Shown: positions 752-50,959 of the stretch, piece after piece
Layout of the letters: each line of letters begins with the position of its first letter
Numbering within the stretch: position 1 is the stretch's first letter
Assembly: GCA_965645245.1 (NCBI GenBank)
Contig: OZ287078.1
Coordinates: 682,001-746,000 of the forward strand
Length of the DNA stretch: 64,000 nt
Origin: Massalongia carnosa
Lineage: Eukaryota
Reading direction: 5' to 3'
Translations under genes and position numbers: made by a program
Notes under the pieces: model-generated
What the model was told of the DNA's origin: nothing
Seen by the model: only the letters and a program-made list of their open reading frames with translations
Database searches by the model: none

Positions 752-1341
752 GGGAGGCGGCGGGATGTCGATGTCGGTGGTCAATTTCCACAAAAGCACG
801 CGCGGGATGAATGAATCGATGGATAGATAGCATGAGCGAGCGATGAAATCTGTCTGCCTTTCTGCCTGCCTGCCCGCCTATCTATCTATCTACTTATTGA
901 TCAGGGGGGGGGGGGTGGGGGGGGTGGAACAAAAAGAACTCCCTTGGCCCGCTTTGTACTCCAGAAGCCAGCCAGCCATCCAGACAGATGAAGAAGAGCC
1001 TAACCAACCAACCAACTAACCAGGCCTGCCTGCCTGCCTGCAGCGGGATAAGGTTCCGCACATGTACCTAGATAGAATAGTATAGCATAGCATAGAACAG
1101 AACTTGTTTTCGCATCAATCTGGAGCAATGTGAGGACAATAGTTACTTGCTGTATCAAGTGGAACCCGGAGGAACGTCGTTATTTATGCATGTATGTATG
1201 TACATTATCCACTCACCCACCCACCCAATCCTAACCAACCAACTAGATGCATATTCCTATAGATTTATATCTTTAAAGCTTCTCTACCTCCCCTGCCTTA
1301 CCAACCTGTACCACGGTTGTGTATGTATCTATATATGTATG

Positions 1342-1381
1342 TACACACACACACACACACATACACCCACACACACGCACA
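1342..1381. repeat. (CA)n microsatellite, imperfect
   Basis: tacacacacacacacacacatacacccacacacacgcaca. Confidence 0.85.
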
Positions 1382-1971
1382 CTTCAGACATGAGTAATCA
1401 ATCTACAATCTACGGGGGCAGAGGGCGGGGGATTAAAGAGTGTAGATAGATATGGGATACAAGAAGAAGAAACGCCGAGTCTAGGGCTCCTCCTCTTTCC
1501 CCTTTCCCCCCCCCGGAAAAAAAGGGATATACAGTTGCATATGCGATTTGCAGCAAAAAAGTGCATCCTCATGTGATATATAAGATAGATTGACAGCTCG
1601 ATAGATGGGGGACGGATAGGTAGAAACGGGTAGGTTTGTTTCATTTGATTATAATAAAATATGATTTGTAGGATATCGAAATCGTAGCACGAGAGGGAAA
1701 AACTTCTCCGTCCTCGCTTTGGGGGAAGAAAATCAGAAAAAATAGGGTTGGTAGCTAACGTAACTTGAGTCATCCATAGATCGGATCAGCCATGAACAAA
1801 TCGCACTCGATAGATCTCGTCATCGTCAGAACAAGAAAAATAGAAAATATGAAAACACTCGTGACTGAGTAGGTAGGTTAGTAGGTCTAGTAAGCAACCG
1901 TTCAGTAAACAAAATCACCGCTATATAAAAACCACCACCGGATACGTCCAAGCCATAACTTGCTAGATGGT

Positions 1972-18842: not shown

Positions 18843-21403
18843 TTAGGTTGATGGTAAAGATAGGCTACTAATCGAGAAAAGCCGTAGAGAACCATCTTCA
18901 CTCGCAACGGCTAATTGCCCCTTCCCGCCATACTCCTCTTGCTCAAATATTTCGCCAATGCCATTCTCCAACAAAATCGGTCGCCATGCGAGCCGTGTAA
19001 TAGGCTGTGAAGGACGTAACCTGTGAACGTCAGTCTCTGTTTAGTGACTCATATCCAGAATTCCAACTTACAGATCATCCAAGCTGGATAACACCCTGAT
19101 TTGAAAGGAATGTAGGTCTAATGTGTAAATTGACACGTCACAGTTTTCACTCCCAACTGCAACAATGATGGCATCCTGAATACATCTAGGAAGAATATCG
19201 ACTGCCGTGACTGGAGATAAAGCTGTAATGGTCGTCAAACATTCGACTCCGTCCTGCTGTATCTTCCAGATCCGGACAGCTTTGTCTCTTCCGGCAGTAG
19301 CAAAAATCCGTTCAACGTCCAATGGAGTCCAACTCGCACTCAGAATCATCCGTGAATGCCCCTTGGGATTGGTGTACTTTAGCATGTATACCTCCGACCA
19401 AAAATCTTCTCGCTCAAAAACGGCCCACCGCCTATCTCGACCAACACTCAGGAGGTATCTGTCATCCTTGGAGAAGCGTAGACAGGTAACAGTCAGTGAA
19501 TGGGCTGTCAGCGAGGGTTTGATTTCTCGCCAGTCCTTAGTTGAGTATAACCGCACAACCGCGTGCTCTATTGAACTTGCTTTGCACCCTGTAGCGATCA
19601 CAGTACCCTTATGGCTGCTTGCAACTGCGGAAATTTCATATCCATGGCCATAAAGCTTTTCTCTTTCGGGCCATAGTGTGTGCCTCGCCAATTGATCTTC
19701 AATAGGGGGTCTGTCGAGACCAAGTGATATAGGTGCTGTACTTGTTGTTTCCGGGTCTAAATGCTGATGCTCTTCTATATAGGGTTCGGCATTAGACTTC
19801 TCGGCCTCTATATACTCTATCACTTTGTTTGATAGTCCCAGAACTGGAATACTGGCCGCATCCGGCAGGTCTTGCTCAGCCCCTGGACTGACTCCACACA
19901 GCGAATATAGCAAGTCGGCTGTATTACGAGGCTCATCAAAAACCCTTAGTAACTTCTCATCTGCTCCTGATATGAATTGAGTTCGACCTGTGGAATCCAG
20001 ACAATTCAGATCATATCCATGAATTTGAGGTCTTGCAAGCTCATGCCATGTCGTCCAAGCTCCACGCTCCCATTGAGCATGCAGTCGCGTAGTCTGGTCT
20101 GATCCGGTTGAGAGTAAATAAGTACCATCTTTTGCCCAAGCTAAATCTGTCAATGGCTTCGTGTGACCACTGATTCCGACACCTTGAACCCAGCGGTCGT
20201 GTTCTCTATCGTAATCCCATAACCTCCAACTTCCAGCTCTCCCAAGGCTCACTACACTTTTCCCACTAGGAGACCACAATCCATTCCAGAAGCCTCCGGC
20301 ACTACCTGTTGCTGTTGTTGATCCTTTTTGTGCACTCATTTCCCCCAAGCGCGTCGTACAAACCCATACTCCCGAGCTGACTTCGGGCTCCCAAAACGCT
20401 AGGGAACTGTCTGCTGACGCCGAGAGCAACTGCAACCGTTTACCATCAGTGCGCCATGATACTGTGTATACCCAGTCTTCATGGCCGAGCAGAAGGGCTT
20501 CGAAGGTGAGTGAATATGATTTATGCAAAGCCTCAAGCCGATGGGCCTTGTTGGACAACGCTCGCTCCCCGCGTACCAAAAAATTTTTTCTGATTCCGCC
20601 TCCTTCTAGAACTTCTTCGCCCTCCCGAATACGCCAAAGCCGAATGTACTTATCTTGGCTTGCAGATGCCAACAAAAGATCGTCGTTTGACATATTTCGC
20701 TCTCTAACAACCGCCAAAGACCGTATCCAGCCTTCGTGGCCCATTAACGTAGCTTGCAAATAGAACACCTTCTGATTTTCGGTCACATATATCTGCACAA
20801 ACCCTTTAGTCCCTGCTACAGCAAGCATCAGGGACCCGGATGTTCCAAGCTCACTCATTGCTAAAGCCAAAGGAAAAAATCTAGGGTTGGTGTGAATTGA
20901 TTGTAAAAGATCAATATCCACATGACCATCCTTCAATCTTGAGCCCCACACTTTGATCGTAGCATCCGCAGATCCAGATGCAAAGATACTTGTCCCACTA
21001 GCTACAGCTAGGCAGTTGACTGAGCCAGTATGGCTCTTTAGCGTCTCCACCTCTTCGAAGCCCACAGACGATGTTACTAGAGCTCTCCATACTCGCACTG
21101 ATTGGTCAACAGATCCACTCAGTAAAGTCAGGGGTTGACCCTTCAAAGGTGAGCAGAATTTGACGGCGTTGACTTTGCCAGAATGACCACGAAGTAGCGC
21201 ATGCACGCCCTGGTTGTTCTCGTTCTGTCCATTGAATGAGTCAAGCTTGAATCCAATGGTGGCACATGTACTACCACAGGCTTCCAAAGTGCAACGTTAC
21301 GGTCGGTGCCATAAGCAAGGACACCACTCGTAACATCCCAATCAGCAGCAGCAGGATGCTTGTTGCCACCTGCAGCGAGATATTCTGGTTTAAATTCGAT
21401 CAT
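18843..21403 (-). CDS. ELP2: Elongator complex subunit 2 (WD40), 3 exons
   Basis: AGGNKHPAAADW; LLASASQDKYIRLW; FEALLLGHEDWV; WHELARPQIHGYDL; TLWPEREKLYGHGYE; last exon ends ASEDGSLRLFSISSLSLPST*. Confidence 0.95.
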
Positions 21404-32965: not shown

Positions 32966-35828
32966 ATGACGGACTATGACAGAAGGAATGGTTCAGCGCG
33001 AGGAGGTTATAATAATCGCAAGCGGAGGTTTCGAGGTAACAACCTAGGCGCTTCCTTCTTTTACACGCTAATCTTGCTCAATAGATGAAGATGACTATGA
33101 CCGTCGCCCGCAGCGCAGACGATATGAGGAGCCATTAGGTGTGAAAGTACGGAAGCAGCTTCTTGCTATTGCTGAGTCGGTATAAATTCACGTCCGAAGA
33201 GTCGTCAGTTCTAATATGCTAATGCTGGAACAGCCGCTAAAGAGAACGGACGACGAAATCGCCAGCATCGCCAAAATAGTTGCTGAGAGCTATGACAATG
33301 ACGAACTTCGAAACACATTTGTGGATCTATTGTTGCAACTGTTGGTTCATTCCTGCCTGCTATGGCCTCGATTATCACTAACGATGCATCAGTGTGGTTG
33401 AGCAGCCTTTTAAGATTCCCTTTGCCGCCGCTATTATAATAGTTGTAAACCCTCAAAACTCAAAACCTACCCAAGAAATTATAGCAAGAGCGGCCGCGGC
33501 TTTGCAAAAATACCTATACAATGGGGCTTGGCGTGAGGTCAAGCTGCTGCTACGATTCTTGGGCTGCTTGCAAGGAGTTTTGGAGGGTGATGGCGTGTTT
33601 CCCATCTTGGAGGAGTTATTCTCACGAGCAGTTGACTTACAGACTGCTTCATCTGAAGACGTAAGTTTCGCGTTCACAAAGTGTGTACAATGCTAACCTT
33701 TCTACTATTAGAGCTTAGGATTAGAGCTTGTAAAGATCATTCTACTTACGATTCCTTATGTAATGGCTTCCTCCGCGACGGACTTTGAAGAGCACGCCAA
33801 TGTCCTACTGGACAAGACAGATATCATTGCTTCAACACCTCATGCTCTTGAAGCTCTAGTGGATCCTTATCCAGGAAACGGGGAAGATACTGCACACGAA
33901 CCGCAAAGCATTATTGGCCTCTTACAAAAGCAGCTACAAGGCGAGGCTAGCAACTCTTGGGAGTTGGCATGTATTCCTCGTGCATGGAAGTTACCCGAGG
34001 CCGGAGATGGAGTGGATAACCCAATGGTTAATTTAAAGCATGCCTTACCGCCGCTTACTGTCCCTTCCCCGGCGTCGCCAGGCTCTCGCCCTCGATTGCC
34101 AGAGATTTATTTTTCTGTGTACGCGGACCAAGACATTGAGACGGTACCATCGACCGCTAATGTAGCATCTTCTATATTGCGAGATTCCCTTGTTGATACT
34201 ATCAACATACTTGACTTCAATCGAAATGCAACAGCCAGGTTTCTGATCGATCTAGATTGTTACTTCTCACCTGACACTTTTGTGAAAAGGGCTACGCCTT
34301 TTGACCGCTTACGAGACGTTGAGGGTAACCGATCAACATGGAAACCAGAAGATGTTGCAGTGGACGCGGTGTTCTCTCAGCTTCTACAGCTGCCCGCGCC
34401 AGAGCATAAGCTGGTGTATTATCATTCCGTACTCACCGAGGCTTGCAAGATTGCACCGGCAGCAATAGCACCAAGTCTAGGTCGGGCAATCCGCTACCTA
34501 TACAAAAACGTCGATGTTATGGACCTTGAACTAGAATATAGATTTATGGATTGGTTCTCGCATCATTTGAGCAACTTTGGTTTCACCTGGAAATGGACCG
34601 AATGGTAACTTCCGTCAAGCGCGCTAATTGCGTCCATCGCTGATTATTCATAGGGTTGATGACGTGGAGCTACCATTAGTACATCCCAAAAAAGCTTTTA
34701 TGGTGGGGGCCTTGGAGAAAGAGATTCGCCTTAGTTTTGCCCAAAGAATACGAGGGACTCTTCCGGAGCCTTACCAACCCCTAATCTCCAAAGCCAAAGA
34801 AGAAGATACGCCCAGCTTCAAATACAACTCCGACCGTAAGCTTTTGCAGAATCCATCGACTTTGCGAAGCATGATGACTAACAAATTGCCGTTCAGAAAC
34901 CCCCTATGCGCCTGCAGCCCTCGAGATTCTCCGTCTCCTCCGGACCAAAGCTCCTGACTCCGAAATCCTTATTCACCTTACGGCTATCGAAACCGAAGCT
35001 GCTGCCTTGGGAGTTGGTGACCCACTCGTCCCATCCACAGACGCCTATGTAACCTCCATCTGCTACATTGGATCCAAATCACTATCCCATGTACTCTCCT
35101 GCATTGAGCGCTGTAAAGAGCGCCTTCTGGCCATCGGCCCTCAATCAGAGTCCGCTAGGCGCCAGATAATCACTTCGGTGATGGAGTACTGGCGTGAGAA
35201 ACCGGGCGTCGGCGTGAACGTCGTAGACAAGCTCCTGAACTACACCATCCTCACCCCCATAAGTGTCATCACCTGGGCACTTGTTGACCACATTGGCAAG
35301 GGAGAGAGCCTTACCCACGCACACGTCTACGAGATGGTCGCATCAACGATGCACAAGGTTACTAACCGTGTACGGCAGATCGTGCTGGCACGCAATCAAC
35401 GCGAGCTGCCAATTGTGCAGGTGGCTCTGCTGGACGAGACACTCGCAAAGGAGCGAAGGGATATGGAGCAGTTGTTTGCCGTTGTTGAGGACGCTCTGGT
35501 GGGAGTGGCGACCGGGGTGGTGGACGAGATGGCGGAGTCGGCGGACCAGGATGGGAGTGGGGCGGCGCTGTTGAGAGCTTGGGGTGGGCGATGGTTAAGG
35601 GTGTTTAGGCGAAAGATAGCGATTGAGGAGGCGTGGGTAGGAGAAATGCTGCTGCTGATTGAGGGGGGCCAAGATGGTCTTGATGGGGTCGACGATCAGG
35701 GCGATGGAGATGGTGATGATGATGAAGTGGCAATGGACGGGATAGCGAACGGGGGGCACGGCAACTTGAGCGGAATTGCTAATGGACTTGATATCATGGG
35801 CCAGGAGGGCGAGGACGAGATGCTGTGA
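32966..35828 (+). CDS. CBP80: Nuclear cap-binding complex large subunit (Cbp80/Sto1/NCBP1), multi-exon
   Basis: N-terminal NLS-like NRKRRFR; VEQPFKIPF; FMDWFSHHLSNFGFTWKWTEW; EIRLSFAQRIRGTLP; IGSKSLSHVLS. Confidence 0.92.
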
Positions 35829-36040
35829 GTTGCGAGATGGTTCGCCCTTGGGAGGGAGGGCCGAGTTTTTCTTTGGTGTTCCGTGTGGCTTGTAAAGCTA
35901 CGGTTTGCGGGAATTCGGTTCATGTATGTTCATTTCATCGTAGGGGGAGGTTACCTATCTGTGTGTTTATCTACGGTAGCTAGCTCTCTAGCTACCTATT
36001 ACGGATCTTGCACTACCGCATCGTGGCGCTGCGGTTAGGG

Positions 36041-36105
36041 GTGGTGGTAGTGGTGGTGGTGGTGGTGGTGGTGGTGTTGTGGTTGGTAGTGGTAGTGATA
36101 GTGGT
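36041..36105. repeat. (GTG)n microsatellite, degenerate at the right end
   Basis: gtggtggtagtggtggtggtggtggtggtggtggtg... Confidence 0.85.
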
Positions 36106-36440
36106 ACAGAGTAGTGGCAAACAATTCTCTAGACAGACGGAACGGGACGTGGAAGGAGGGGGGGAGATATTGGGGGAGATGCGATGTCAGCTACCTACAT
36201 ACACATAGATCTATGTACATAGTTACCCACGCACCTTCCTGTCAAGTTTAATGCTGCATTGTCGGGTATGCATATAGGTAGATACTCTGTATGTTGTGTA
36301 AATATGTAGGTAGTGATTGTGTACCGACGTAGGTACTCCGTACCGACGTACCCCATGTATGAATGCCAAGCTCTGTATGTCTGACAGGTTGCCAGGGGGT
36401 TTTTTGAGGGGAGGTTTAGCGGCTTGGCTGGTACGTCCAT

Positions 36441-37081
36441 TTTATTATTATTATTAATTCATTAAGCGTATGCATCCTAAGGATATGACGCTGTGACTGC
36501 TATTTATGTACATAAACAACAGTCAGGAAGTGGAAACCTGGCCCCCAGGGTAAAACCACTCCCTTGTTCCATGTTGAACGCAACGAGACCGTCCTTCTAC
36601 CACGCGGTGCATACACCCAGATCTTCAAGCGCTAGGAATCCTATAGACTCGATGAACTAGACAGTGTATTTTCACACGTTCGACGAACGTTCTCTCTCTT
36701 TAAACGTTTTGATTCAATGGAGGAAAGACTGGCCGTGATCGAGGGCAGATCGTGGTGTCGTATAAATGAAGGTGTGTAAGTGTGGCCATTCTAAATGAAT
36801 GGGCTTTTTCGATGTGGTGAAAGGCTTCCGCCTGAGGGGTGTGGCCATTCCGAATGAATGGGCTTTTTTGATGAGGTGAAAGGCTTCCGCCTGAGGGGTG
36901 TGGCCATTCCGAATGAATGGGCTTTGTATGCGTGCCTTCGAGGTGACGAATGATCAGTAGAGACGTTGATCGTTCAAATGGCCACCGAGGTGGACTTCCG
37001 CGTTGGCGATGATCAGATATTGGCCACCTCCGAGGAGGTGTTGATAGCCTGCACCACGTAGAGGTTTCTGACCCAGCAGGC
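36441..37081 (-). mobile_element. Non-autonomous non-LTR retroposon (SINE/SIDE-like), 641 bp, with 13-bp TSD and (TAA)n tail
   Basis: Direct repeat CTGGTACGTCCAT at 36428-36440 and 37082-37094; minus-strand 3' end ...gcttaatgaattaataataataataaa; three 3' hairpins; no ORF of 60 aa or more in the track. Confidence 0.85.
36780..36925. repeat. 59-bp tandem repeat, about 2.5 copies, inside the retroposon
   Basis: Units start at 36780, 36839, 36898: gtgtggccattccgaatgaatgggcttttttgatgaggtgaaaggcttccgcctgaggg. Confidence 0.92.
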
Positions 37082-37082
37082 C
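37011..37082 (-). ncRNA. HDV-like self-cleaving ribozyme fold at the 5' end of the retroposon
   Basis: GGCCUGC UG GGUCAGA A ACC UCUACGU GGU GCAGGCU AU CAA CACCUC CUCG GAGGUG G C CAA UA UCUGAUC = P1 (7 bp, G1-U wobble), P2, P3 with 7-nt L3, CAA, P4, catalytic-C-like position at 37023. Confidence 0.8.
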
Positions 37083-37320
37083 TGGTACGTCCATGCTAGC
37101 ATGAAGAGCCCTACCAGCCAATCGGTCAGCCTCAGCAAGCCAGTTCAGTTAGTCAGTCAGTCATCAGCAAAGTCGAGTCATGGATTGGTTGGTATGCATT
37201 GATTGGATTAGATTGGACTATTTGATTGATTGGTTGACTGGTTTACGGAAAGTGATTGGTTAACTGAGTTAAACCGATTAGCCGGTTGAGATAATTGATA
37301 GATTGATTGATTACTCTGTA

Positions 37321-38800
37321 CGGAGGATGACACAAAAAGTCTTTGGATGCGCTAAGAATGGCACTAAGGATTTAGCGCTGCATCAATGCCCCTTTTCCAT
37401 ATTTGATTTATCATCTTTATTTTTCACATCAACCTCATTTTCAAACGATATAATGCATTGAAAATCAGGTCTATATGCAGACTTATGACATGATTAGTCT
37501 ACATCACTGCTATCAGATATAATGTCTTTGCGATAGCGAATGCGACGATCTTCGGAATTATATGGCCGGACCACACCATTGTCTCGACCCTCTCGATACT
37601 CGTTTCCTCCATTCAAAGCGATGACTTCTTCTATATGTCGTGGAATTCGTTCTATCCATTGCTGAATTTTTTTTTGTTTCAGAGTTTTTGTCCAGCACCG
37701 AGTCCATGCTTTGATAGCCGTAATGCGATTTCGAGGTGCTCCTTTTCGTGTGGTTTGCCTTTTCATCCAAGGCCAACATTGCTCGATCATGTTCAAATCA
37801 GGAGAATTACCTGGCCACAATAAACGCAAGACTTCTGCATCCATAAAGACCAGGTCTTGATGTTTGGAAGCATGACCAGGGGCCTTGTCCTCCTGCACAA
37901 TAGTATCGGGACGATCTTTTATACATTCTTTTGCAAACGGAAGAAGTTTGGGAAGAAGAATAGTTTTTTGATAACGATACCAGTCGCTGCCCCCTTTGCC
38001 TTTTCGAGCCACTTTTCCATGCTTTTCATCCCATTTCCAGACCGGTTTTCGACCTCCTTCGGTACGCAGTCCCATTCGTTTCATGCCTATTTCCAATTCC
38101 CAATTTTCTTTCGCTAGAGGCTCCAATGCCTTATTGATTTGTCGATTTCTCCTTGAGCGGCATGTTTTTCTGCCGCTGTCTCCGGCTTCCATATATGAAA
38201 AGGACCTTTCTTTTCATACGAAAAACAACCCCAAAACATGAATTCGGAACATCCTTTCCATCTACGTCGAATGCACGTTTGAGCATATCTTTCTTTTGGA
38301 GTTCGCCACTAGAGTCTTCGTCCTCTTCGAGAGCCTAATACAACACTAGTTTCATCGCTCCATATGACATTCTTCCAGTCATCGAGAGTCCAATGACGAT
38401 AACGCAAACAGAATTGCAATCGAGCCTCTTTCATTGCTGAATCAAGGCCTGGTTTCATGGTAGATTTGCAGGGACGAAAGTTATTGCGTCGAAGAATATT
38501 GAGAATAGTTGTAGATGAGACTCCGTGCTCATATCCCAAAACGGCTGAGGATTTTTCTCTATCATTTCGATCATGACGAACGTTGTCTAAAATGGCCTGT
38601 TCTAGCTCAGACGTCACTTTAGGAGGACGTCCTGAACGACATGCATCTTCTACGTATTCTACATTCAATATTCGCGAAACAGTGGGATCATATCTTCGAT
38701 CTCGTGCCTTGCGCTTGATATAACTGATAGACTGAGTTGAGACTCCGGTGACTGCTTGAACGACTTTGACTGCTATGCCCCAACTGACAGACACAAGGAT
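37321..38800 (-). mobile_element. Tc1-like (DD34E) DNA transposon, 5'-truncated, with pseudogenized transposase
   Basis: SGRPPK, WKNVIWSDET, VQEDKAPGH, WPGNSPDLNMIEQCW (34 aa between D and E); in-frame TAG at 38309-38311 and a 1-nt frameshift near 38140; putative terminus TA|CGGAGGATGACACAAAAAG at 37321; matching TIR not found. Confidence 0.85.
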
Positions 38801-38806
38801 TAGCTA

Positions 38807-40185
38807 CAGGGGGGGAGGGGGGGGGGGCGGAAGAAGCGGGAAGATAGAAAGTGGGGAAAAGATACTTTATTTTGTTAGCAATTTGCGTACAATTTTATGT
38901 ATCTCCTACTCTACTAGCTAGGTGTTTATCCAAGCTCTCGTCGCATCACCAAATATCGTTTGACTCGCCGGTCTTTTCGATGATGACATGGACGTATCAG
39001 ATAAAGAGATCTCTTCTTGTAGTAGTCTATCCTCCATCTCACAAAGATCCGTCTCATTGATGTCGATGCTAGCAAACTGAAGCTTGCTTTTGAAATCTGT
39101 TGGCCGATTAAGAGTACGCTCATTCATGTAAATAAACATGAGTTTATCGACATTGATGGAATGTAGAGAGTTCCGACTTTTGGTCATGATCAAATTCATG
39201 ACCGACCAATTTCTTTCTGCCAGCACCGAATTAGCAGGCAGCATTATTACCTTTCTAGCTATGTTGCTGAGATCAAAAGCAAAGCTTCTGGAAAAGTTCC
39301 AAAACAGCTCCGAATCCGTTTGATATGTCCAGCATTCGGAGGCAGGATAAAAACCGTCTTCTTGATTTCGAAAAGAAAGCCATTGCTTCATTGCCGACTT
39401 TGCTTCTTCAACGTTCAGATATTCAGCAAAGAATCTATGCATGATAGAGAAAAATGCCTGCGACGTGGATACTCCAATCACCTGAATGTTATGATTCTGA
39501 GGAACCAACAGAGCTGCTACCACATGAAGTTCAGTTATTTGACTGAGATATCGATCTTCCCAAACTATCTCTGCAATGTGATGCAAATCCATCTCAGAAT
39601 CTTCATCCTCTTTGGCCATTGTATATAGGTGAGATCGAAGCCTGTTCCAATTGGCAGTCACCGCGTACAGTTTATGCCCCTCGGCCTCGGACATGTATTG
39701 TGCTTTATGTATGGGATCAAGAATTTTCTGTACGATGGCCAGCTTTTTCCAAAACGAGAAGTCGTTGACGAATGTTCCTAAAGGATGACTTCTGCCCTGA
39801 TCAATGCCCGGAGCATTTTGCTGAAAATAATCCAAAATTGCCTGCTTGCTTTTTAGCACCGAGTTCAAAAGGCCTACAGTCGTACCCCATCTGGTCAAAA
39901 CGTTGAGAATCAGTGATTGACGTTGATTGTATGCCTTTGAAAGTTATAAATTAGCAATGAAGTTTTGATGCCGCATTGAAATTTCATTCCTACTTACCTT
40001 CATCTGAAAATTCCATAGAATGGCCAATTCTTTATTCGATCCACGAAAAGCTACCACTATCGACTGAGCTTTTTGCATGATGTCTGCAAAAAAAGGAAGC
40101 TTCAAAATGTCTCCCAAAAGAAGCTGTAAACCGTGACTGTCGAAAAAGACGTGTCTCATCTCAGGAAACTTTCGAATTTCAGACC
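38807..40185 (-). mobile_element. hAT-superfamily transposon fragment (3' half of transposase, intron 39935-39997)
   Basis: HVFF-DSHGLQLLLGDIL; FQMK|AYNQRQSLILNVLTRWGTT; C-terminal dimerization-like MLPANSVLAERNWSVMNLIMTKSRNSL..DKLMFIYMN; stop 38918; G-rich CAGGGG.. putative terminus at 38807. Confidence 0.85.
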
Positions 40186-42200: not shown

Positions 42201-42433
42201 GTTTGGGAGAAGATTGATGAGCGAAAGTTCGCAAACGAGAAGGGAAAAGAAAACACCGCCGTCTTACTCTATATCGTTCACCTTTCTATTCTTCCTCATC
42301 TGACAGTAAGCTCTAAATTCTAGTCACACCCGAACAGGCTTAGCTCAGCATCCCGATGCGTGCTAATTGTGCTTTACCTCAGTACCTCAGACATGTCTAA
42401 GCCCCTCAGGGTTAGCCTATTTTGTTAAGCTCC

Positions 42434-43760
42434 CACGCGGGTGACAAAATAAATTGCAACGTGTAAGCGAATTTACCCCTGAATGCCCCATCAAAACACC
42501 CTCCTTTTTTTCAACTTTTTATCTCATCATCAATGTCTCGACCCAAAAAGCCTCATTATGATACTCCCACAAAGGCCAAAGTTCAAGGAGCTTATCAATT
42601 TCTCATCTCACATGCAATTCCATTCGATCCACGGGCCATTTTTCAGGAATTTGGCGTGGCCGAGCGCGCGGGCTATAACATCATCAAAAGCGGAGCTTCT
42701 TCTCGCACACGTCACAATTCTTCTCTCGTTGAGACTCGGGGTCGAAAGCGAAATATTAGTGATGATCAGCTGAAGGAGGCAGATCAAATTCTACAGGATC
42801 AAGAGCTACAATTGGAAGGAAAACGCTACACATGGGATGCTTTAGCACAGGAGATTGGGGCCGACGTGATGGGACGTACAATGAAGAGAACTCTTACAGC
42901 TGCCTTGAATTATCACAAATGTCTAGCCTGTGTCAAAGGGTGGCTGGCAATGGCATCAGAAGAAAGAAGAGAAGAATTTGCTACAGTTATGTTAAATAAA
43001 TATCCTCGGTTCGAAGACTGGCATCGCGTACGATTCAGCGATGAGATTCATTTTGGCTACGGGCCTGAAGGACAGTTACGAATCATTCGTAAGCCCGGAA
43101 CAAGATATCGTTGGGATTGTATTCAGCATCGTGATGCACCACCTGAGAAAGATCGTAAAAGAAAGCACTGCTGGGCAGCAGTTGGTTACAATTTCAAGTC
43201 GGATATCTACTTCTACGATGTGCCCAGCAATAGCAATGGAAAAATGACTCATCAGGTGTATATTGACGCTATTCTTGATCCCGTTGTCAAGCCCTGGTTG
43301 GAGCGTGGAGATGACTTCGTACTTGAAGAAGATGGAGACTCTGGTCATGGCACGGGCAAGACACGAAACGCGGTCAAAAAGTGGAAGTTAGATCACGATT
43401 TAGAGCACTATTTCAATTGTGCTTCATCTCCTGATCTAGCCTCCATTGAAAATTGCTGGCAGCCCGCAAAGCAGCATGTTCGTAAATTTCCTCATTGGGA
43501 CGATGCAAGTTTGGAGCAGCTGATTAGGGAGGGATGGGCTCGAGTCAGTCAGGAATTTATCAATGAAAGGGTGTTATCCATGCCCAAAAGATTGAAAGAG
43601 GTAAAAGATGCAAAGGGGGCGATGACTGGTTATTGATCTCATGTAATTTATATGAATTTTATTAGCTATGCAGATGATGGTTGATGATGAGATGAAAATT
43701 TGAATAAAAAAGGGGGGGTAAATTCGCTTACACGTTGCAATTTATTTTGTCACCCGCGTG
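42434..43760 (+). mobile_element. Intact IS630-Tc1-mariner-type DNA transposon, 1327 bp, perfect 46-bp TIRs, non-TA flanking direct repeat
   Basis: TIR cacgcgggtgacaaaataaattgcaacgtgtaagcgaatttacccc at 42434-42479 and inverted at 43715-43760; GCTCC at 42429-42433 and 43761-43765. Confidence 0.93.
42533..43636 (+). CDS. Tc1-like DDE transposase, 367 aa, uninterrupted
   Basis: RGRKR; VRFSDEIHF; LEEDGDSGH; SSPDLASIENCW (38 aa between second D and E by manual count). Confidence 0.92.
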   Translation: MSRPKKPHYDTPTKAKVQGAYQFLISHAIPFDPRAIFQEFGVAERAGYNIIKSGASSRTRHNSSLVETRGRKRNISDDQLKEADQILQDQELQLEGKRYTWDALAQEIGADVMGRTMKRTLTAALNYHKCLACVKGWLAMASEERREEFATVMLNKYPRFEDWHRVRFSDEIHFGYGPEGQLRIIRKPGTRYRWDCIQHRDAPPEKDRKRKHCWAAVGYNFKSDIYFYDVPSNSNGKMTHQVYIDAILDPVVKPWLERGDDFVLEEDGDSGHGTGKTRNAVKKWKLDHDLEHYFNCASSPDLASIENCWQPAKQHVRKFPHWDDASLEQLIREGWARVSQEFINERVLSMPKRLKEVKDAKGAMTGY

Positions 43761-44333
43761 GCTCCTTCTGATTAGCGTCCCAGCTGACTAACGATAGCAC
43801 AAAAGCCCGCATAGTCAGCCTTAGCCGGCACGTCCGAGGTACTGAGACAAATTATGCTAAACCACTTTGGGAAGGAACCGGCATGCTGGTGGACTCAACG
43901 TCCTTCGTTCAACTTCCCCTATGAACATGCAGAGTACAGCTCTCAATGCTCTCGAAGCTCTAGATGTTCGCTTCACCTGCCAGGAGGTCAAAACTCAGTA
44001 GATCCATGATAGTGATAATTTTGATTACCTAATAACCTTTTAAATAGCTACTCGTATCAAGAACTAACCATAACTCAATCCTGTCTACATTTGTTGTACC
44101 ATAGAGCTGGTGGAAATATTGATATGGTATACAGTAAAGACTGGCTGTCGTGAAGTCTGATGTGCGCACGCTAAACAGGCGTAAAACCAAGTGACCACCC
44201 TTCACCCACCTGTTATCCAGTCGGGGGTTTTTTCTCTAAACCATAAACACCCCTTTCCCACGTACCCGGCCTGTGAATACCTGAACAGCATCCTGGCCGA
44301 CTGATATCGAAGAGATTTGCACGCCAATGACTG

Positions 44334-48547: not shown

Positions 48548-50959
48548 TTATTGAAGATACGGTCCATATCTGTTCATAGTATCGTAATTAGCATCACCTG
48601 GCACGCGAGGATTAACAGGTTGACGAACCTCCAAATTCGAGCACGCATGTCACCACTGCCTGTGGCAAAAAGTTCGCCCTGCGGGCTGGGGGCTACAGAA
48701 ATCACTATATTTCGCACGGTATTTGTGAGCAACATGGTCCATTCACCTCCACCACTGCCGTCGATCTCGACCCTTTGGATTGGGGTAAAGCAGCATACCT
48801 GAGTTCTTGTGGCCTTGGAGCATGAGTTGTGTATCGCCTGTATGGGGGTCCCAGAATTGTACACCCCTATCTTTGGATCCGCTGAGCACCCATTCACCGT
48901 CGGGTGTAAGCGCAACGCTAAGAACAAAATCCTGTATATCCTCATCAGAATTTTCTCCCTCGTTCGGCTCACTTGCCACACGAACGATCTCACTCACTTT
49001 ATGGCCCTCGAACGTCCTCAGGCATTTGGCGCTTCTTGGCGGGGGACCTGCCATCATTGGTCGGTTATCCGCCAATTCCCACATCTTGATAGACTTATCC
49101 AGGCTTCCGCTAACAAGAGATCGTCCATTGGGTGCAAAAGCCACGGAATATACACTATCTTTGTGGCCGTCAATTCCATCTAGTCGCTCGATCAAGAATC
49201 CAGTTCGAGCGTCCCAAACTCTCACACTTTTGTCGAGAGACCCAGCTGCAACATATTCTCCACCAGGTGAAATAGCTACAGTCGTGACGCCATCTTCAAT
49301 GCTTAGGTTCAATACTTCCTGGCCGCTTTCAATGTCCCACACACGAACTGTCCGATCACCGCTGCCAGATGCGATATGTTTACCATTCCGAGCAAAATCT
49401 AGAGAATAGATGTCCTGCTCATGCCCGGAAAAGGTGTGTCTGATGGTGCGTGATTGTATATCCCAAACCTGCAAACATATTGTCAGCTGAATAGTTCAAA
49501 AAGTTGAATTGAACCAGACTTAAAAGTAAGAACGCACTCTGATTTGCTTGTCTTCGGCACCTGTTGCCAAGTATTTCCCATCGGGGCTGAAGCAGACGCT
49601 GCGAATATACAAGTCTCCATCCTTGTCAACCGTTTCATCCTGTAGTTTAGTCACCTGATTACCAGTGGAAACTTCGAAGATTTGCGCCGACCGATTGCAT
49701 CCGGTAGCAACGTATCTACCATCAAGACTAAACCTAACACAGCATACGACACTTTCATGGGGCAGATTATGCACAAGATCGACGTCGAGGACTCGTCGGA
49801 TACGAGGATTGAACACTGCAAACCAATCAAGCCCCTCGCGCTTCTGGTCTGGGCGTAGCTGTTCAGGATCTAGATCGGCAAGCTGATTGCCGACATTGGG
49901 AATCTGCGGTTGTTGTTGCTGTGTTGGCGGACTTTGTCTTCCTAGCTGCGGTGATCTTGGATCCTGATATGGAATTGTATGATTTTGCTGAGGAGTGGCG
50001 GGTCCTGGTCCAGGCTGTACCCGATTGCTCCGACCCTTGCCTGGACCAGGAGAAGCGATCGGTTGCTGGGTTTGGGGGGTGTATCCTAATCGAAAAATTA
50101 GCGGAGGGTTTCGCTTTCCTTTTCAGTATATAACCTGTGACACGTGGCCTAAAAAGCTTAAGAAAATCATGAACACAGTTTAAATGGAGGATTTACCATT
50201 ATTCATGCTAGAAGGCTGTGGGTAGCCCTGGTATGGTGGCTGCTGCAGCCCGGGTGGTGGCTGGGGCATTTGATGCTGCTGGGGAGCTTGAGGCTGTTGC
50301 TGATCCTGAGAGGGAGGTACAAGGCCTGGATTGCCCTGGCCCGGTGGATTAGCCATGATGCCACCAAATAGGTTGCTGGGACCATGGCCAATAGCGGGAG
50401 GCTGAGGCTGCGAGACTCCATGAGGAGGCAGCCCACTTATACCCACATGGGATGGCGGTCCCCCCCGAGCTTCGATCTCATGGCGCAAACGAGCAATATC
50501 TTCTTCATATCTGAGCCATGGTTAGTAGGTTGGGAAAATGTGACTAAGCATATAGTATCTGGATATACCTTTGCTTGATAGCTATTTGTGTTTGTTCAAG
50601 ATTGTACACTTTTTGTCTTACCATCTCCATTTCTTGCAGCTGAGATGCCACTGAAGAATTCACGTTCATTAGCAGTCATTAAATCTAGCTTCAGCGTGGT
50701 TGTTTCGATTTCGAAAAATTCAGATTGTAGATCTTTCTGGTGAAATGAAATCTCTCCTGCACTTAACATGCGAAGTATGTAGCAAATCATGCAGCAGAGC
50801 AGTGTAATCACGAATTGATAGGAAAGAAGCAAACGTACTGTTCTGCTCATATTCGCCATTCCGACTTTGTTGGCTTTCGAATTCCGCTCGTACCTGGTCC
50901 AACAATTCTGTCAAGCGATTGTTGGGTGCAGGCACCATACCACGATGCGCGTTATACAT
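48548..50959 (-). CDS. TUP1: General transcriptional corepressor Tup1 (RcoA/Rco-1), multi-exon
   Basis: [14 protein letters not shown] (Tup_N); [65 protein letters not shown]. Confidence 0.95.

What the first reader, a model, noticed from the sequence alone, without database searches (positions are those of the whole stretch)
37011..37082. Compact 72-nt HDV-like ribozyme with genomic-HDV-style CAA junction but weakened P1.1
Seen (minus strand): P1 GGCCUGC/GCAGGCU with the canonical G1-U wobble; P2 GGUCAGA/UCUGAUC; P3 ACC/GGU; L3 UCUACGU; CAA before P4 CACCUC-CUCG-GAGGUG; J4/2 G-C-C-A-A with the catalytic-C equivalent at 37023. The order and lengths parallel the HDV genomic ribozyme (G-CAA-P4-G-C75-G-A-A). 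Deviations: only AU lies between P1 and CAA, so P1.1 has at most one pair (U-A), and an A is bulged at the top of P2. Established: CPEB3 is an active HDV-like ribozyme with a single-pair P1.1. Inference: this is either a slow variant or a slightly decayed copy.
Basis: partly seen in the sequence, partly recalled or inferred. Interest (0 to 1): 0.85.

Follow-up and report, generated by a model that had tools for sequence, protein, structure and literature searches.

The report
HDV-like ribozyme heading a fungal retroelement
A 72-base RNA fold of the hepatitis-delta self-cleaving type sits at the very first base of a roughly 640-base, protein-less mobile retroelement that is highly repeated in an ascomycete fungus, which is the known way such elements trim their own RNA: real, but a familiar kind of thing.

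Summary
My HDV-type descriptor hits only this site in the window. About 3.5e-4 hits are expected per shuffled window. Rfam alone is not decisive: the F. prausnitzii HDV model scores 26 bits against a cut-off of 44, with E=1.1 for the whole window.

The context decides it. G1 (37082) is the first base of a ~641-nt element. This element has no ORF, carries a 59-nt tandem repeat and 3' hairpins, ends in a (TAA)n tail, and is flanked by a 13-nt target-site duplication. Public contigs show it is a high-copy repeat. Its edge falls at 37082/37083, and copies in other organisms have their own 11-13-nt duplications.

So this is the 5' processing ribozyme of a non-autonomous non-LTR retroelement, like NARTc/L1Tc or the R2 SIDEs. 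No well-supported variant lies inside the ribozyme, so the single-pair P1.1 looks like a family trait and not decay. Cleavage itself is untested, and no covariation could be obtained. Verdict: a new member of a known kind, of moderate interest.

The parts
37083..37094 (-). 5' copy of the target-site duplication (ATGGACGTACCA; the 13th repeated base, G, is 37082 = ribozyme G1)
   Evidence: Exact 13-nt direct repeat at 37094..37082 and 36440..36428.
37011..37082 (-). HDV-like ribozyme, 72 nt. Predicted cleavage is 5' of G37082. P1 37082-37076/37052-37046; P2 37073-37067/37017-37011; P3 37065-37063/37055-37053; L3 37062-37056; P1.1 partners 37045 (A38) with 37060 (U23); P4 37040-37025; J4/2 37024-37020.
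37023..37023 (-). Candidate catalytic cytosine (C60), aligned to the conserved C of 'GGCuAA' in both Rfam HDV models
   Evidence: Alignments.
36441..37082 (-). Whole non-autonomous retroelement (about 641-642 nt): ribozyme, short hairpin, 59-nt tandem repeats, structured 3' region, (TAA)n tail
   Evidence: Repeat edges and depth. No Pfam family on its only open frame, 36700-37095. No tRNA. No Rfam match in 36380-37010.
36981..36992 (-). Small hairpin CCAC-CUCG-GUGG just 3' of the ribozyme, with the same CUCG loop as P4
   Evidence: Read; it pairs in the fold.
36780..36956 (-). 59-nt tandem repeat: 2.5 good copies plus a degenerate third. One unit (36816-36874) is absent from the copies in runs X5 and X6.
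   Evidence: table 8.
36494..36525 (-). Long hairpin (about 13 pairs) near the 3' end, a candidate recognition structure for the partner's reverse transcriptase (inference)
   Evidence: Self-inverted blast match; 13-pair stem in the fold.
36441..36457 (-). 3' tail TTAATAATAATAATAAA, i.e. (TAA)n plus A. Its length differs between copies.
   Evidence: Loose ends at 36440, 36451 and 36457 in X1 and at 36448 in X5.
36428..36440 (-). 3' copy of the target-site duplication (ATGGACGTACCAG)
   Evidence: A 419-nt X1 contig spans 36112-36469 with 0 differences (table 8).

Best explanation
The 72 nt at 37082..37011 (minus strand) are the 5'-terminal HDV-like self-cleaving ribozyme of a short, ORF-less non-LTR retroelement (about 641 nt). 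The host is an ascomycete whose DNA also turns up in lichen metagenome runs. The proposed mechanism runs as follows. The element has no recognisable promoter of its own and is transcribed as part of a longer RNA, either from upstream DNA or from a preceding tandem copy. The nested double pseudoknot folds, and C60 (37023) in J4/2 catalyses cleavage 5' of G1 (37082). This releases an RNA whose first base is the element's first base. A reverse transcriptase supplied in trans by an autonomous LINE, not present in this window, recognises the structured 3' end and (TAA)n tail. It copies the RNA into a new site by target-primed reverse transcription, creating an 11-13-nt duplication. P1.1 has a single A-U pair in the family's majority sequence. 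Shown: the fold, the element's anatomy, its mobility, and the coincidence of its 5' end with G1. Inferred: catalysis, co-transcription, and the partner LINE.
For: 1. All HDV helices and conserved single-stranded motifs are present in the right order. This is the only descriptor hit in the window, against about 3.5e-4 expected per shuffled window.

2. Two independent Rfam HDV models align end to end on the same coordinates, though below their cut-offs. P3 plus L3 (ACCUCUACGUGGU) matches the RF02682 consensus at all 13 positions, and the same 13-mer occurs in 12 viral-contig loci, 8 of which I read as HDV-like folds.

3. A 13-nt direct repeat ends exactly at G1 and restarts exactly after the (TAA)n tail.

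4. In run X1, summed word depth is 134,704-714,288 over 36413-37096, against 857-879 in the flank 35900-36412, with 2196 pieces laid. Similarity stops 'behind' 37082 in 13 contigs and 37083 in 5. The letters beyond disagree between contigs (agreement 0.43-0.5), which indicates many different insertion sites.

5. Contigs from two other organism labels carry the element at other sites with their own duplications, read from the loose-end letters. X5 has TATTCACAATAGA (13 nt) and X6 has ATTACATCGGC (11 nt), each followed by a G that overlaps G1.

6. 0 of the 40 shown variant rows lie in 37000-37082, while 36 lie in 36479-36999. If variants were spread evenly, P would be about 0.007.

7. One X1 contig joins 37083 back to 36453, a head-to-tail pair of copies. 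This gives a ready-made co-transcript.

8. Precedent: HDV-like ribozymes define the 5' ends of L1Tc and its non-autonomous NARTc, and of R2 and its SIDEs. L1TcRz has a single-pair P1.1 and is described as fast (passages of PMC3185411 and PMC3414825).
Against: - No cleavage assay exists, and no RNA run was listed, so catalysis is unproven.
- P1.1 has only one A-U pair next to a C.U mismatch. This is weaker than the single G-C pair plus U-U reported for CPEB3 (PMC4836649).
- No covariation could be tested. No copy sequences could be fetched, and the copies seen through one search are nearly identical in the ribozyme.
- Rfam scores are far below gathering (26 vs 44; 22.9 vs 50), and the whole-window E-value is 1.1.
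- The nested MFE fold is only modestly better than shuffles (z -1.73; 9 of 200 shuffles fold as well).
- A precise common 5' end could also come from an internal promoter starting at G1, as in L1Tc, where promoter and ribozyme share the same 77 nt.
- The conservation argument rests on a truncated table (54 rows not shown). It may also be biased near repeat edges, where contigs break.
- X1 may be the sample the window was assembled from, so it is not independent.
Confidence: 0.72

Rival explanations
1. The fold is real and belongs to the retroelement, but it is catalytically dead or very slow. The uniform 5' end would come from an internal promoter that starts transcription at G1. The structure would then serve another role, such as protecting the 5' end or binding the reverse transcriptase.
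For: P1.1 is reduced to one A-U pair. In L1Tc the same 77 nt are both internal promoter and ribozyme (abstract of PMC3383444), so a precise 5' end does not by itself prove cleavage. No RNA data are available.
Against: Every other catalytic-core feature is intact: G.U at the cleavage site, L3 U...CG, CAA, and GC.AA with the C. No well-supported variant is listed in that core among many copies, which is hard to explain without selection on the ribozyme core. A single-pair P1.1 is compatible with fast cleavage in L1TcRz. No tRNA-like part that could carry a Pol III promoter was found.
Confidence: 0.17
2. This particular copy is a decayed member of a family whose active consensus has a two-pair P1.1 (AG or GG after P1).
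For: Related bacterial and phage ribozymes with the same L3 have AG or GG at this place.
Against: In X1, the sites where the window copy is in the minority (36672, 36869, 36931) are all outside the ribozyme, and no variant row is shown for 37044-37045. X5 and X6 list no difference inside the ribozyme either. One difference in each of those contigs could not be placed: table 8 gives X5 4 and X6 5, while table 3 lists 3 and 4.
Confidence: 0.06
3. Chance resemblance: the helices are accidental, and the repeat's 5' end coincides with them by luck.
For: The Rfam whole-window E-value is 1.1, and the MFE z-score is only -1.73.
Against: About 3.5e-4 full descriptor hits are expected per window. The hit also has to fall exactly on the first base of a mobile element. 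The 13-nt P3/L3 core is identical to a known ribozyme family's consensus.
Confidence: 0.03

Closest known systems
L1TcRz of Trypanosoma cruzi L1Tc and its non-autonomous derivative NARTc (PMC3185411, passages; PMC3383444, abstract)
   Same: HDV-like ribozyme in the first ~77 nt of a dispersed non-LTR element, and of a short ORF-less derivative. Cleavage is at element position +1. P1.1 has a single pair. Copies occur both dispersed and in tandem. The proposed role is release from longer transcripts.
   Different: Host kingdom (a kinetoplastid versus an ascomycete). No sequence relationship was tested. L1Tc's 77 nt are also a proven internal promoter, which is unknown here. The partner LINE of the present element was not found.
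R2 ribozyme and R2 or R2/R1 SIDEs of Drosophila (PMC3414825, passages)
   Same: Short internally deleted elements made of a 5' HDV-like ribozyme plus a 3' end used by a LINE's machinery. They are flanked by target duplications and recently active. The ribozyme processes a co-transcript.
   Different: R2 and its SIDEs insert site-specifically in 28S rDNA and have large J1/2 or P4 elaborations. This element is compact (72 nt) and inserts at varied sites (3 different duplications seen).
Rfam RF02682, the HDV ribozyme of F. prausnitzii, and look-alikes on phage contigs (L001, L003, L004, L005, L007, L009, L010, L011)
   Same: Identical P3+L3 13-mer, CAAC after P1.1, a GGCNAA J4/2, one extra base between P2 and P3, and compact size.
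   Different: Scores 26 bits against a cut-off of 44. P1.1 is AU instead of AG or GG, and one base is missing before CAAC. It has G.U, not G-C, at the cleavage site. The context is a eukaryotic retroelement rather than bacterial or phage DNA.
Variant HDV ribozymes of fungi (Li and Breaker group 2017, PMC5640933, passages)
   Same: HDV-class ribozymes in ascomycete genomes, many copies per genome, with an extra base between P2 and P3.
   Different: Those have a C-G pair at the cleavage site and an E-loop replacing part of P4. This one has G.U and a plain 6-bp P4 with a CUCG loop, so it fits the classical consensus. The paper says only 11 fungal examples of the classical type were known. A retroelement context is not mentioned in the passages I read. 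Its alignments were not among the 3 supplementary files held.
Mammalian CPEB3 ribozyme (PMC4836649, passages)
   Same: Compact HDV-like fold with a 7-nt L3 of the U..ACGU type and a P1.1 with one Watson-Crick pair next to a pyrimidine-pyrimidine mismatch.
   Different: CPEB3's single pair is G-C, it is intronic and single-copy, and it is not part of a mobile element.

Membership tests
HDV-like self-cleaving ribozymes (class) | Nested double pseudoknot: P1, P2, P3, P4 in the canonical order, with P1' directly after P3' | tested here: met
   P1 7 bp, P2 7 bp, P3 3 bp, P4 6 bp. It is the only such site in the window.
HDV-like self-cleaving ribozymes (class) | Purine-pyrimidine (typically G.U) pair at the base of P1 at the cleavage site | tested here: met
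   G1 (37082) with U37 (37046).
HDV-like self-cleaving ribozymes (class) | Catalytic cytosine in J4/2 directly after P4 (G-C-N-A-A) | tested here: met
   GCCAA at 37024-37020. C37023 aligns with the conserved C in both Rfam models. Presence by sequence only.
HDV-like self-cleaving ribozymes (class) | L3 with the U and G of the reverse wobble (U20.G25 of HDV) | tested here: met
   L3 is UCUACGU; U21 and G26 are in the equivalent places. The equivalence to HDV numbering is my own reading.
HDV-like self-cleaving ribozymes (class) | P1.1 between L3 and the two bases after P1 (two pairs in HDV; one pair in the accepted members CPEB3 and L1TcRz) | tested here: inconclusive
   Only A38-U23 can pair; U39 faces C22. 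One pair is enough in L1TcRz and CPEB3, but here it is A-U.
HDV-like self-cleaving ribozymes (class) | Mg2+-dependent self-cleavage giving 2',3'-cyclic phosphate and 5'-OH ends | not testable with these tools
   No RNA run was listed. The indirect support is that the 5' end of the DNA copies lies at G1.
HDV-like self-cleaving ribozymes (class) | Compensatory changes in P1, P2 and P4 among relatives | not tested
   No copy sequences could be fetched. Searches found no copies, and one search gives only tables, with no listed variation in the ribozyme.
Rfam RF02682 (HDV-F-prausnitzii) and RF00094 (HDV_ribozyme) | Score at or above the family's gathering cut-off | tested here: not met
   26.0 vs 44 and 22.9 vs 50. 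It is therefore not filed under either Rfam family.
Variant fungal HDV ribozymes (PMC5640933) | C-G pair at the cleavage site, and an E-loop replacing part of P4 | tested here: not met
   G.U at the cleavage site and a plain 6-bp P4 hairpin. Features taken from passages.
Non-autonomous non-LTR retroelement (SINE/SIDE-like) | Target-site duplications of variable length and sequence flanking each copy | tested here: met
   Window 13 nt. X5 13 nt and X6 11 nt, each plus the overlapping G, read from loose ends. 3 of 3 readable copies.
Non-autonomous non-LTR retroelement (SINE/SIDE-like) | A-rich or simple-repeat 3' tail of variable length, and no terminal inverted or long terminal repeats | tested here: met
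   (TAA)n A tail at 36457-36441. Variable end points at 36440, 36448, 36451 and 36457. No terminal repeats reported.
Non-autonomous non-LTR retroelement (SINE/SIDE-like) | Many dispersed copies with a common 5' end | tested here: met
   2196 pieces laid in X1; depth 150- to 830-fold that of the flank (the tool warns this is not a copy number); edges at 37082/37083.
Non-autonomous non-LTR retroelement (SINE/SIDE-like) | No coding capacity of its own | tested here: met
   The only open frame (36700-37095, 131 codons, no early ATG) has no Pfam family.
Non-autonomous non-LTR retroelement (SINE/SIDE-like) | An autonomous LINE in the same genome sharing the 3' end or the ribozyme | not testable with these tools
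   No genome is held. No reverse-transcriptase or endonuclease domain in the 54 window ORFs scanned.

The most novel reading that the evidence does not exclude
The element may be spreading between different lichen-associated fungi. Contigs labelled as other organisms (X5, X6) carry copies about 99% identical to the window's: 4 differences in 577 nt, and 5 differences plus 1 gap in 584 nt. They sit at different insertion sites, and those runs show no cover of the window's unique flank at 80% likeness. Together with a catalytic core identical over 13 nt to a bacterial/phage HDV-like type, this would point to horizontal movement of a ribozyme-headed retroelement within the lichen community. It would also be a working natural HDV-like ribozyme whose P1.1 is a lone A-U pair.
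Probability: 0.1. Interest if true: 0.7.

Novelty: new member of a known kind. Interest (0 to 1): 0.45.

Why it matters
- It adds a compact, classical-consensus HDV-like ribozyme to fungi. The literature I could read reports mainly a different variant type there, without a stated retroelement link.
- It shows the ribozyme-plus-3'-end design of short retroelements (NARTc, R2 SIDEs) in a third eukaryotic lineage, apparently at very high copy number.
- For ribozyme specialists, it offers a natural test of how little P1.1 the HDV fold needs.
- For annotators of lichen-fungus genomes, it defines a repeat family with exact ends.

Tried and rejected
- No RNA holder was listed among the 24 runs, so expression and the RNA 5' end could not be examined.
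- The window's genome is not held.
- Earlier-findings look-ups by place, sequence and words returned nothing.
- Blast of the element against the window found no second copy.
- A core-pattern scan of metagenome contigs gave 16 loci, none matching the element by blast. Thirteen look like coding-sequence chance matches and 3 like minimal HDV-like motifs.
- The same pattern in prokaryote genome contigs gave 17 bacterial MAG loci, which I did not examine further.
- Because of the above, no alignment, covariance model or pair count was possible.
- The supplement search of PMC5640933 for the L3 motif found 0 occurrences in the 3 files held. Its Stockholm alignments were not among them.
- Two reviews (PMC3256349, PMC3159031) are not held.
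- Protein-coding reading rejected: no Pfam family and no early start codon.
- tRNA-derived SINE rejected.
- No other Rfam family matches the rest of the element.
- The bacterial promoter/terminator scan is not meaningful for a fungus.
- DNA transposon or MITE rejected: no terminal inverted repeats, and a variable A-rich tail.
- A shifted register with G37081 as +1 (as in the RF02682 alignment) was rejected. It leaves no P1.1 pair, and 13 + 5 X1 contigs keep similarity through 37082.

Full report
**Observation.** On the minus strand, 37082..37011 reads GGCCUGC-UG-GGUCAGA-A-ACC-UCUACGU-GGU-GCAGGCU-AU-CAA-CACCUC-CUCG-GAGGUG-GCCAA-UA-UCUGAUC.
- P1 has 7 pairs, with G1.U37 at its base.
- P2 has 7 pairs, one of them G.U.
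- P3 has 3 pairs.
- L3 has 7 nt.
- P4 has 6 pairs with a CUCG loop.
- J4/2 is GCCAA, with the C at 37023.

After P1 come only A38 and U39 before CAA. A38 can pair with U23 of L3, but U39 faces C22, so P1.1 has a single A-U pair.

**Is it more than chance?** Rfam at gathering scores reports nothing in the window.
- With permissive filters on 501 nt, the F. prausnitzii HDV model (RF02682) aligns over its whole length at 37081..37011. It scores 26.0 bits against a cut-off of 44, with E 0.0086.
- The HDV model (RF00094) aligns over its whole length at 37084..37009. It scores 22.9 bits against a cut-off of 50, with E 0.41.
- Searched over the whole window, the first match has E=1.1. Rfam alone therefore does not establish the motif. 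These models also ignore P2 and P1.1.

I wrote a descriptor with the published architecture: P1 7 bp starting with G, P3 3 bp, L3 U-NNN-CG-N(N), P1' directly after P3', a P4 hairpin, GC.AA, and P2 of at least 5 bp.
- It finds one site on both strands of the window, with G1=37082.
- In 300 dinucleotide-preserving shuffles, the P1/P3/L3 core occurred 177 times (0.59 per window) and the full motif 0 times.
- The remaining requirements were met at 142 of 240,000 random placements.
- This gives about 3.5e-4 full motifs expected per window.
- The descriptor was written after I had seen the candidate, so this is somewhat generous.

The nested MFE fold of the 72 nt gives P1 and P4 at -25.3 kcal/mol. 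The z-score is -1.73, and 9 of 200 shuffles fold as well, which is unremarkable for a pseudoknotted RNA.

**What it belongs to.** The window is eukaryotic and looks ascomycete. It has intron-split genes for nuclear cap-binding protein (MIF4G_like domains, 33712-35828 on the plus strand), an aspartyl protease, IPP transferase, a porin, WD40 proteins and others, plus Tc1/mariner and hAT debris. The nearest Atlas clusters are mostly Ascomycota. No genome is held for it.

Reading on from the ribozyme, the sequence runs through:
- a small CCAC-CUCG-GUGG hairpin;
- a 59-nt tandem repeat (2.5 copies at 95% matches);
- a structured 3' region with a stem of about 13 pairs at 36494-36525;
- the tail TTAATAATAATAATAAA, ending at 36441.

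Immediately after the tail comes ATGGACGTACCAG (36440..36428). The same 13 nt lie at 37094..37082, ending on G1. Fourteen exact direct repeats of 13 nt or more, spaced 100-3000 nt apart, exist in the window, several of them low-complexity. For one to sit at a given position has a chance of about 4.5e-5.

The stretch has no second copy in the window and no tRNA. There is no other Rfam match and no Pfam family on its only open frame. This is the anatomy of a non-autonomous non-LTR retroelement of about 641 nt whose first base is the ribozyme's cleavage-site G.

**Evidence from public runs.** Twenty of the 24 listed runs, from 13 studies, hold part of 36380-37140. They include several labelled 'lichen metagenome', and none is on record as RNA. 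I laid the contigs of four runs on 35900-37600 at 80% likeness.

In X1, which is possibly the window's own source:
- Summed word depth is 857-879 over the flank 35900-36412 (lower, about 240-247, over the GGT-repeat bins 36014-36127). It is 134,704-714,288 over 36413-37096, and 0 over 37097-37267.
- 2196 pieces were laid. The tool warns that summed depth is not a copy number, but the element is clearly a high-copy repeat.
- Similarity to the window stops 'behind' 37082 in 13 contigs and 'behind' 37083 in 5. The letters beyond disagree with each other (agreement 0.43 and 0.5).
- At the other end, similarity stops 'before' 36440, 36451 and 36457 (4, 6 and 5 contigs). A further 114 loose-end rows were not shown.
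- A 419-nt contig covers 36112-36469 with 0 differences, confirming this copy's 3' junction.

So the family's 5' edge is G37082. It is not 37081, the start of the Rfam alignment.

Other runs:
- A 7074-nt contig of X5 holds 36448-36815 and 36875-37083, with one 59-nt unit missing and 4 other letters.
- A 2051-nt contig of X6 holds 36440-36815 and 36875-37082, with 5 other letters and 1 gap.
- From their loose-end letters, each has its own duplication. In sense orientation these are TATTCACAATAGA in X5 and ATTACATCGGC in X6.
- In both, as in the window, the next base of the 3' flank is a G that overlaps G1. That is a 1-nt overlap in 3 of 3 readable copies. I read it as microhomology at the 5' junction, though a target preference is possible.
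- X8 carries 26 pieces, including more diverged ones.
- None of X5, X6 or X8 covers the window's unique flank.

**Family consensus or decay?** Of the 40 'other letter' rows shown, 36 lie at 36479-36999, 4 at 37361-37569, and 0 at 37000-37082. Another 54 rows were not shown. With even spread, P is about 0.007 for the 83 nt and about 0.014 for the 72 nt.

The sites where the window's base is the minority in X1 (36672, 36869, 36931) are all outside the ribozyme. The only listed change inside it is a one-base insertion behind 37022 in one X8 contig, at depth 2 of 14.4.

Caveats:
- The table is truncated.
- Contigs break at repeat edges.
- One difference in each of the X5 and X6 contigs is not placed by the tables.

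With those limits, the window's ribozyme, including AU at P1.1, looks like the majority form. The 'decayed copy' reading is not supported. No covariation could be assessed.

**Search for relatives.**
- The core pattern (P3/L3 13-mer, 9-10 nt, CAAC) gave 12 viral-contig loci. By my reading, 8 are HDV-like folds of the F. prausnitzii type, with AG or GG at P1.1 and a C between P2 and P3.
- With a two-A prefix, the pattern gave 16 metagenome loci. None matched the element by blast. Three look like P4-less minimal HDV-like motifs, and the rest look like coding matches.
- It also gave 17 bacterial MAG loci, which I did not examine.

No further copies of the fungal element were obtained.

**Mechanism.** Known systems work this way:
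- L1Tc and its ORF-less NARTc share an HDV-like ribozyme in their first 77 nt that cleaves at +1. Its P1.1 is a single pair, yet it is described as faster than CPEB3. Copies occur dispersed and in tandem (passages of PMC3185411).
- R2 SIDEs are a 5' ribozyme joined to a LINE 3' end. They self-cleave in vitro and are flanked by target duplications (passages of PMC3414825).
- A review summarises the same role for RTE, baggins and some SINEs (passages of PMC6765202).
- CPEB3's P1.1 is one G-C pair plus a U-U (PMC4836649).

By analogy, I propose the following sequence. Read-through or tandem-copy transcripts are made; one X1 contig joins 37083 back to 36453, a head-to-tail pair. These transcripts are cut 5' of G37082. 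The released RNA is then copied into new sites by a partner LINE's enzyme, which recognises the 3' hairpins and tail. Catalysis, co-transcription and the partner are inferred. No reverse transcriptase is encoded in the window.

The main rival is an internal promoter firing at G1, with a dead or slow ribozyme. In L1Tc, promoter and ribozyme coincide (abstract of PMC3383444).

**Comparison and novelty.**
- The fold fits the classical HDV consensus. It does not fit the fungal variant type of PMC5640933, which has C-G at the cleavage site and an E-loop in P4. That paper reports 230 examples in 26 species, and says only 11 classical fungal examples were known before (passages).
- It misses both Rfam cut-offs, so I do not file it under RF02682 or RF00094.
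- Searches of the held library for HDV-like ribozymes with fungi, fungal genomes, non-autonomous elements or lichens found no report of this element. The library lacks most subscription papers, and two key reviews were not held.

Verdict: a real feature and a new member of a known kind. The points of interest are the lone A-U P1.1 and the near-identical copies under different organism labels.

Noticed in passing
window 42433-43761: An apparently intact Tc1/mariner-type transposon. It has perfect 47-nt terminal inverted repeats (42433-42479 and 43715-43761) around a 389-codon open frame with a DDE_3 domain (42467-43636, plus strand).
   Followed up: partly
window 37494-39943 (minus strand): Transposon debris just upstream of the retroelement: a split Tc1/mariner transposase (HTH_Tnp_Tc3_2 at 38309-38803, DDE_3 at 37494-38213) and a hAT dimerisation-domain fragment (38918-39943). 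37268-37600 also has raised depth in run X1 (3,420-51,095 against about 860), so it is repeated too.
   Followed up: partly
L001, L003, L004, L005, L007, L009, L010, L011 (viral contigs): Eight of 12 phage-contig matches to the P3/L3 core look like complete F. prausnitzii-type HDV-like ribozymes, with P1, P2, P4, AG or GG at P1.1, and GGCUAAG or GGCAGAAG in J4/2. The genes around them were not examined.
   Followed up: no
L013, L017, L026 (metagenome contigs): Three related contigs carry what looks like a P4-less minimal HDV-like motif (…GGGUAC…ACCUCUACGUGGU GUACCC…AG GCAAC…GGCUAAU UUUUCC). L013 has an imperfect P1.
   Followed up: no
run X1, joints within 36468-37043: Many contigs skip or replace internal parts of the element, for example 36486 to 37043, or 36759 to 36963 with 136 other letters between. 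This suggests subfamilies with a shared head and tail but different middles. 17 further joints were not shown.
   Followed up: no
window 1318-1382: The best sub-threshold Rfam match in the window (mir-297, 44 bits against a cut-off of 90) is a TG/CA microsatellite, not a microRNA.
   Followed up: yes
window 19068-21296 and 48743-50122 (minus strand): Long WD40-repeat open frames (742 codons; 250 + 200 codons). Possibly the repeat-rich WD40 genes common in filamentous ascomycetes; that link is from recall and was not tested.
   Followed up: no
window 36040-36105: A (GGT)22 microsatellite lies between the cap-binding-protein gene and the retroelement. Contigs of X1 are cut there.
   Followed up: no
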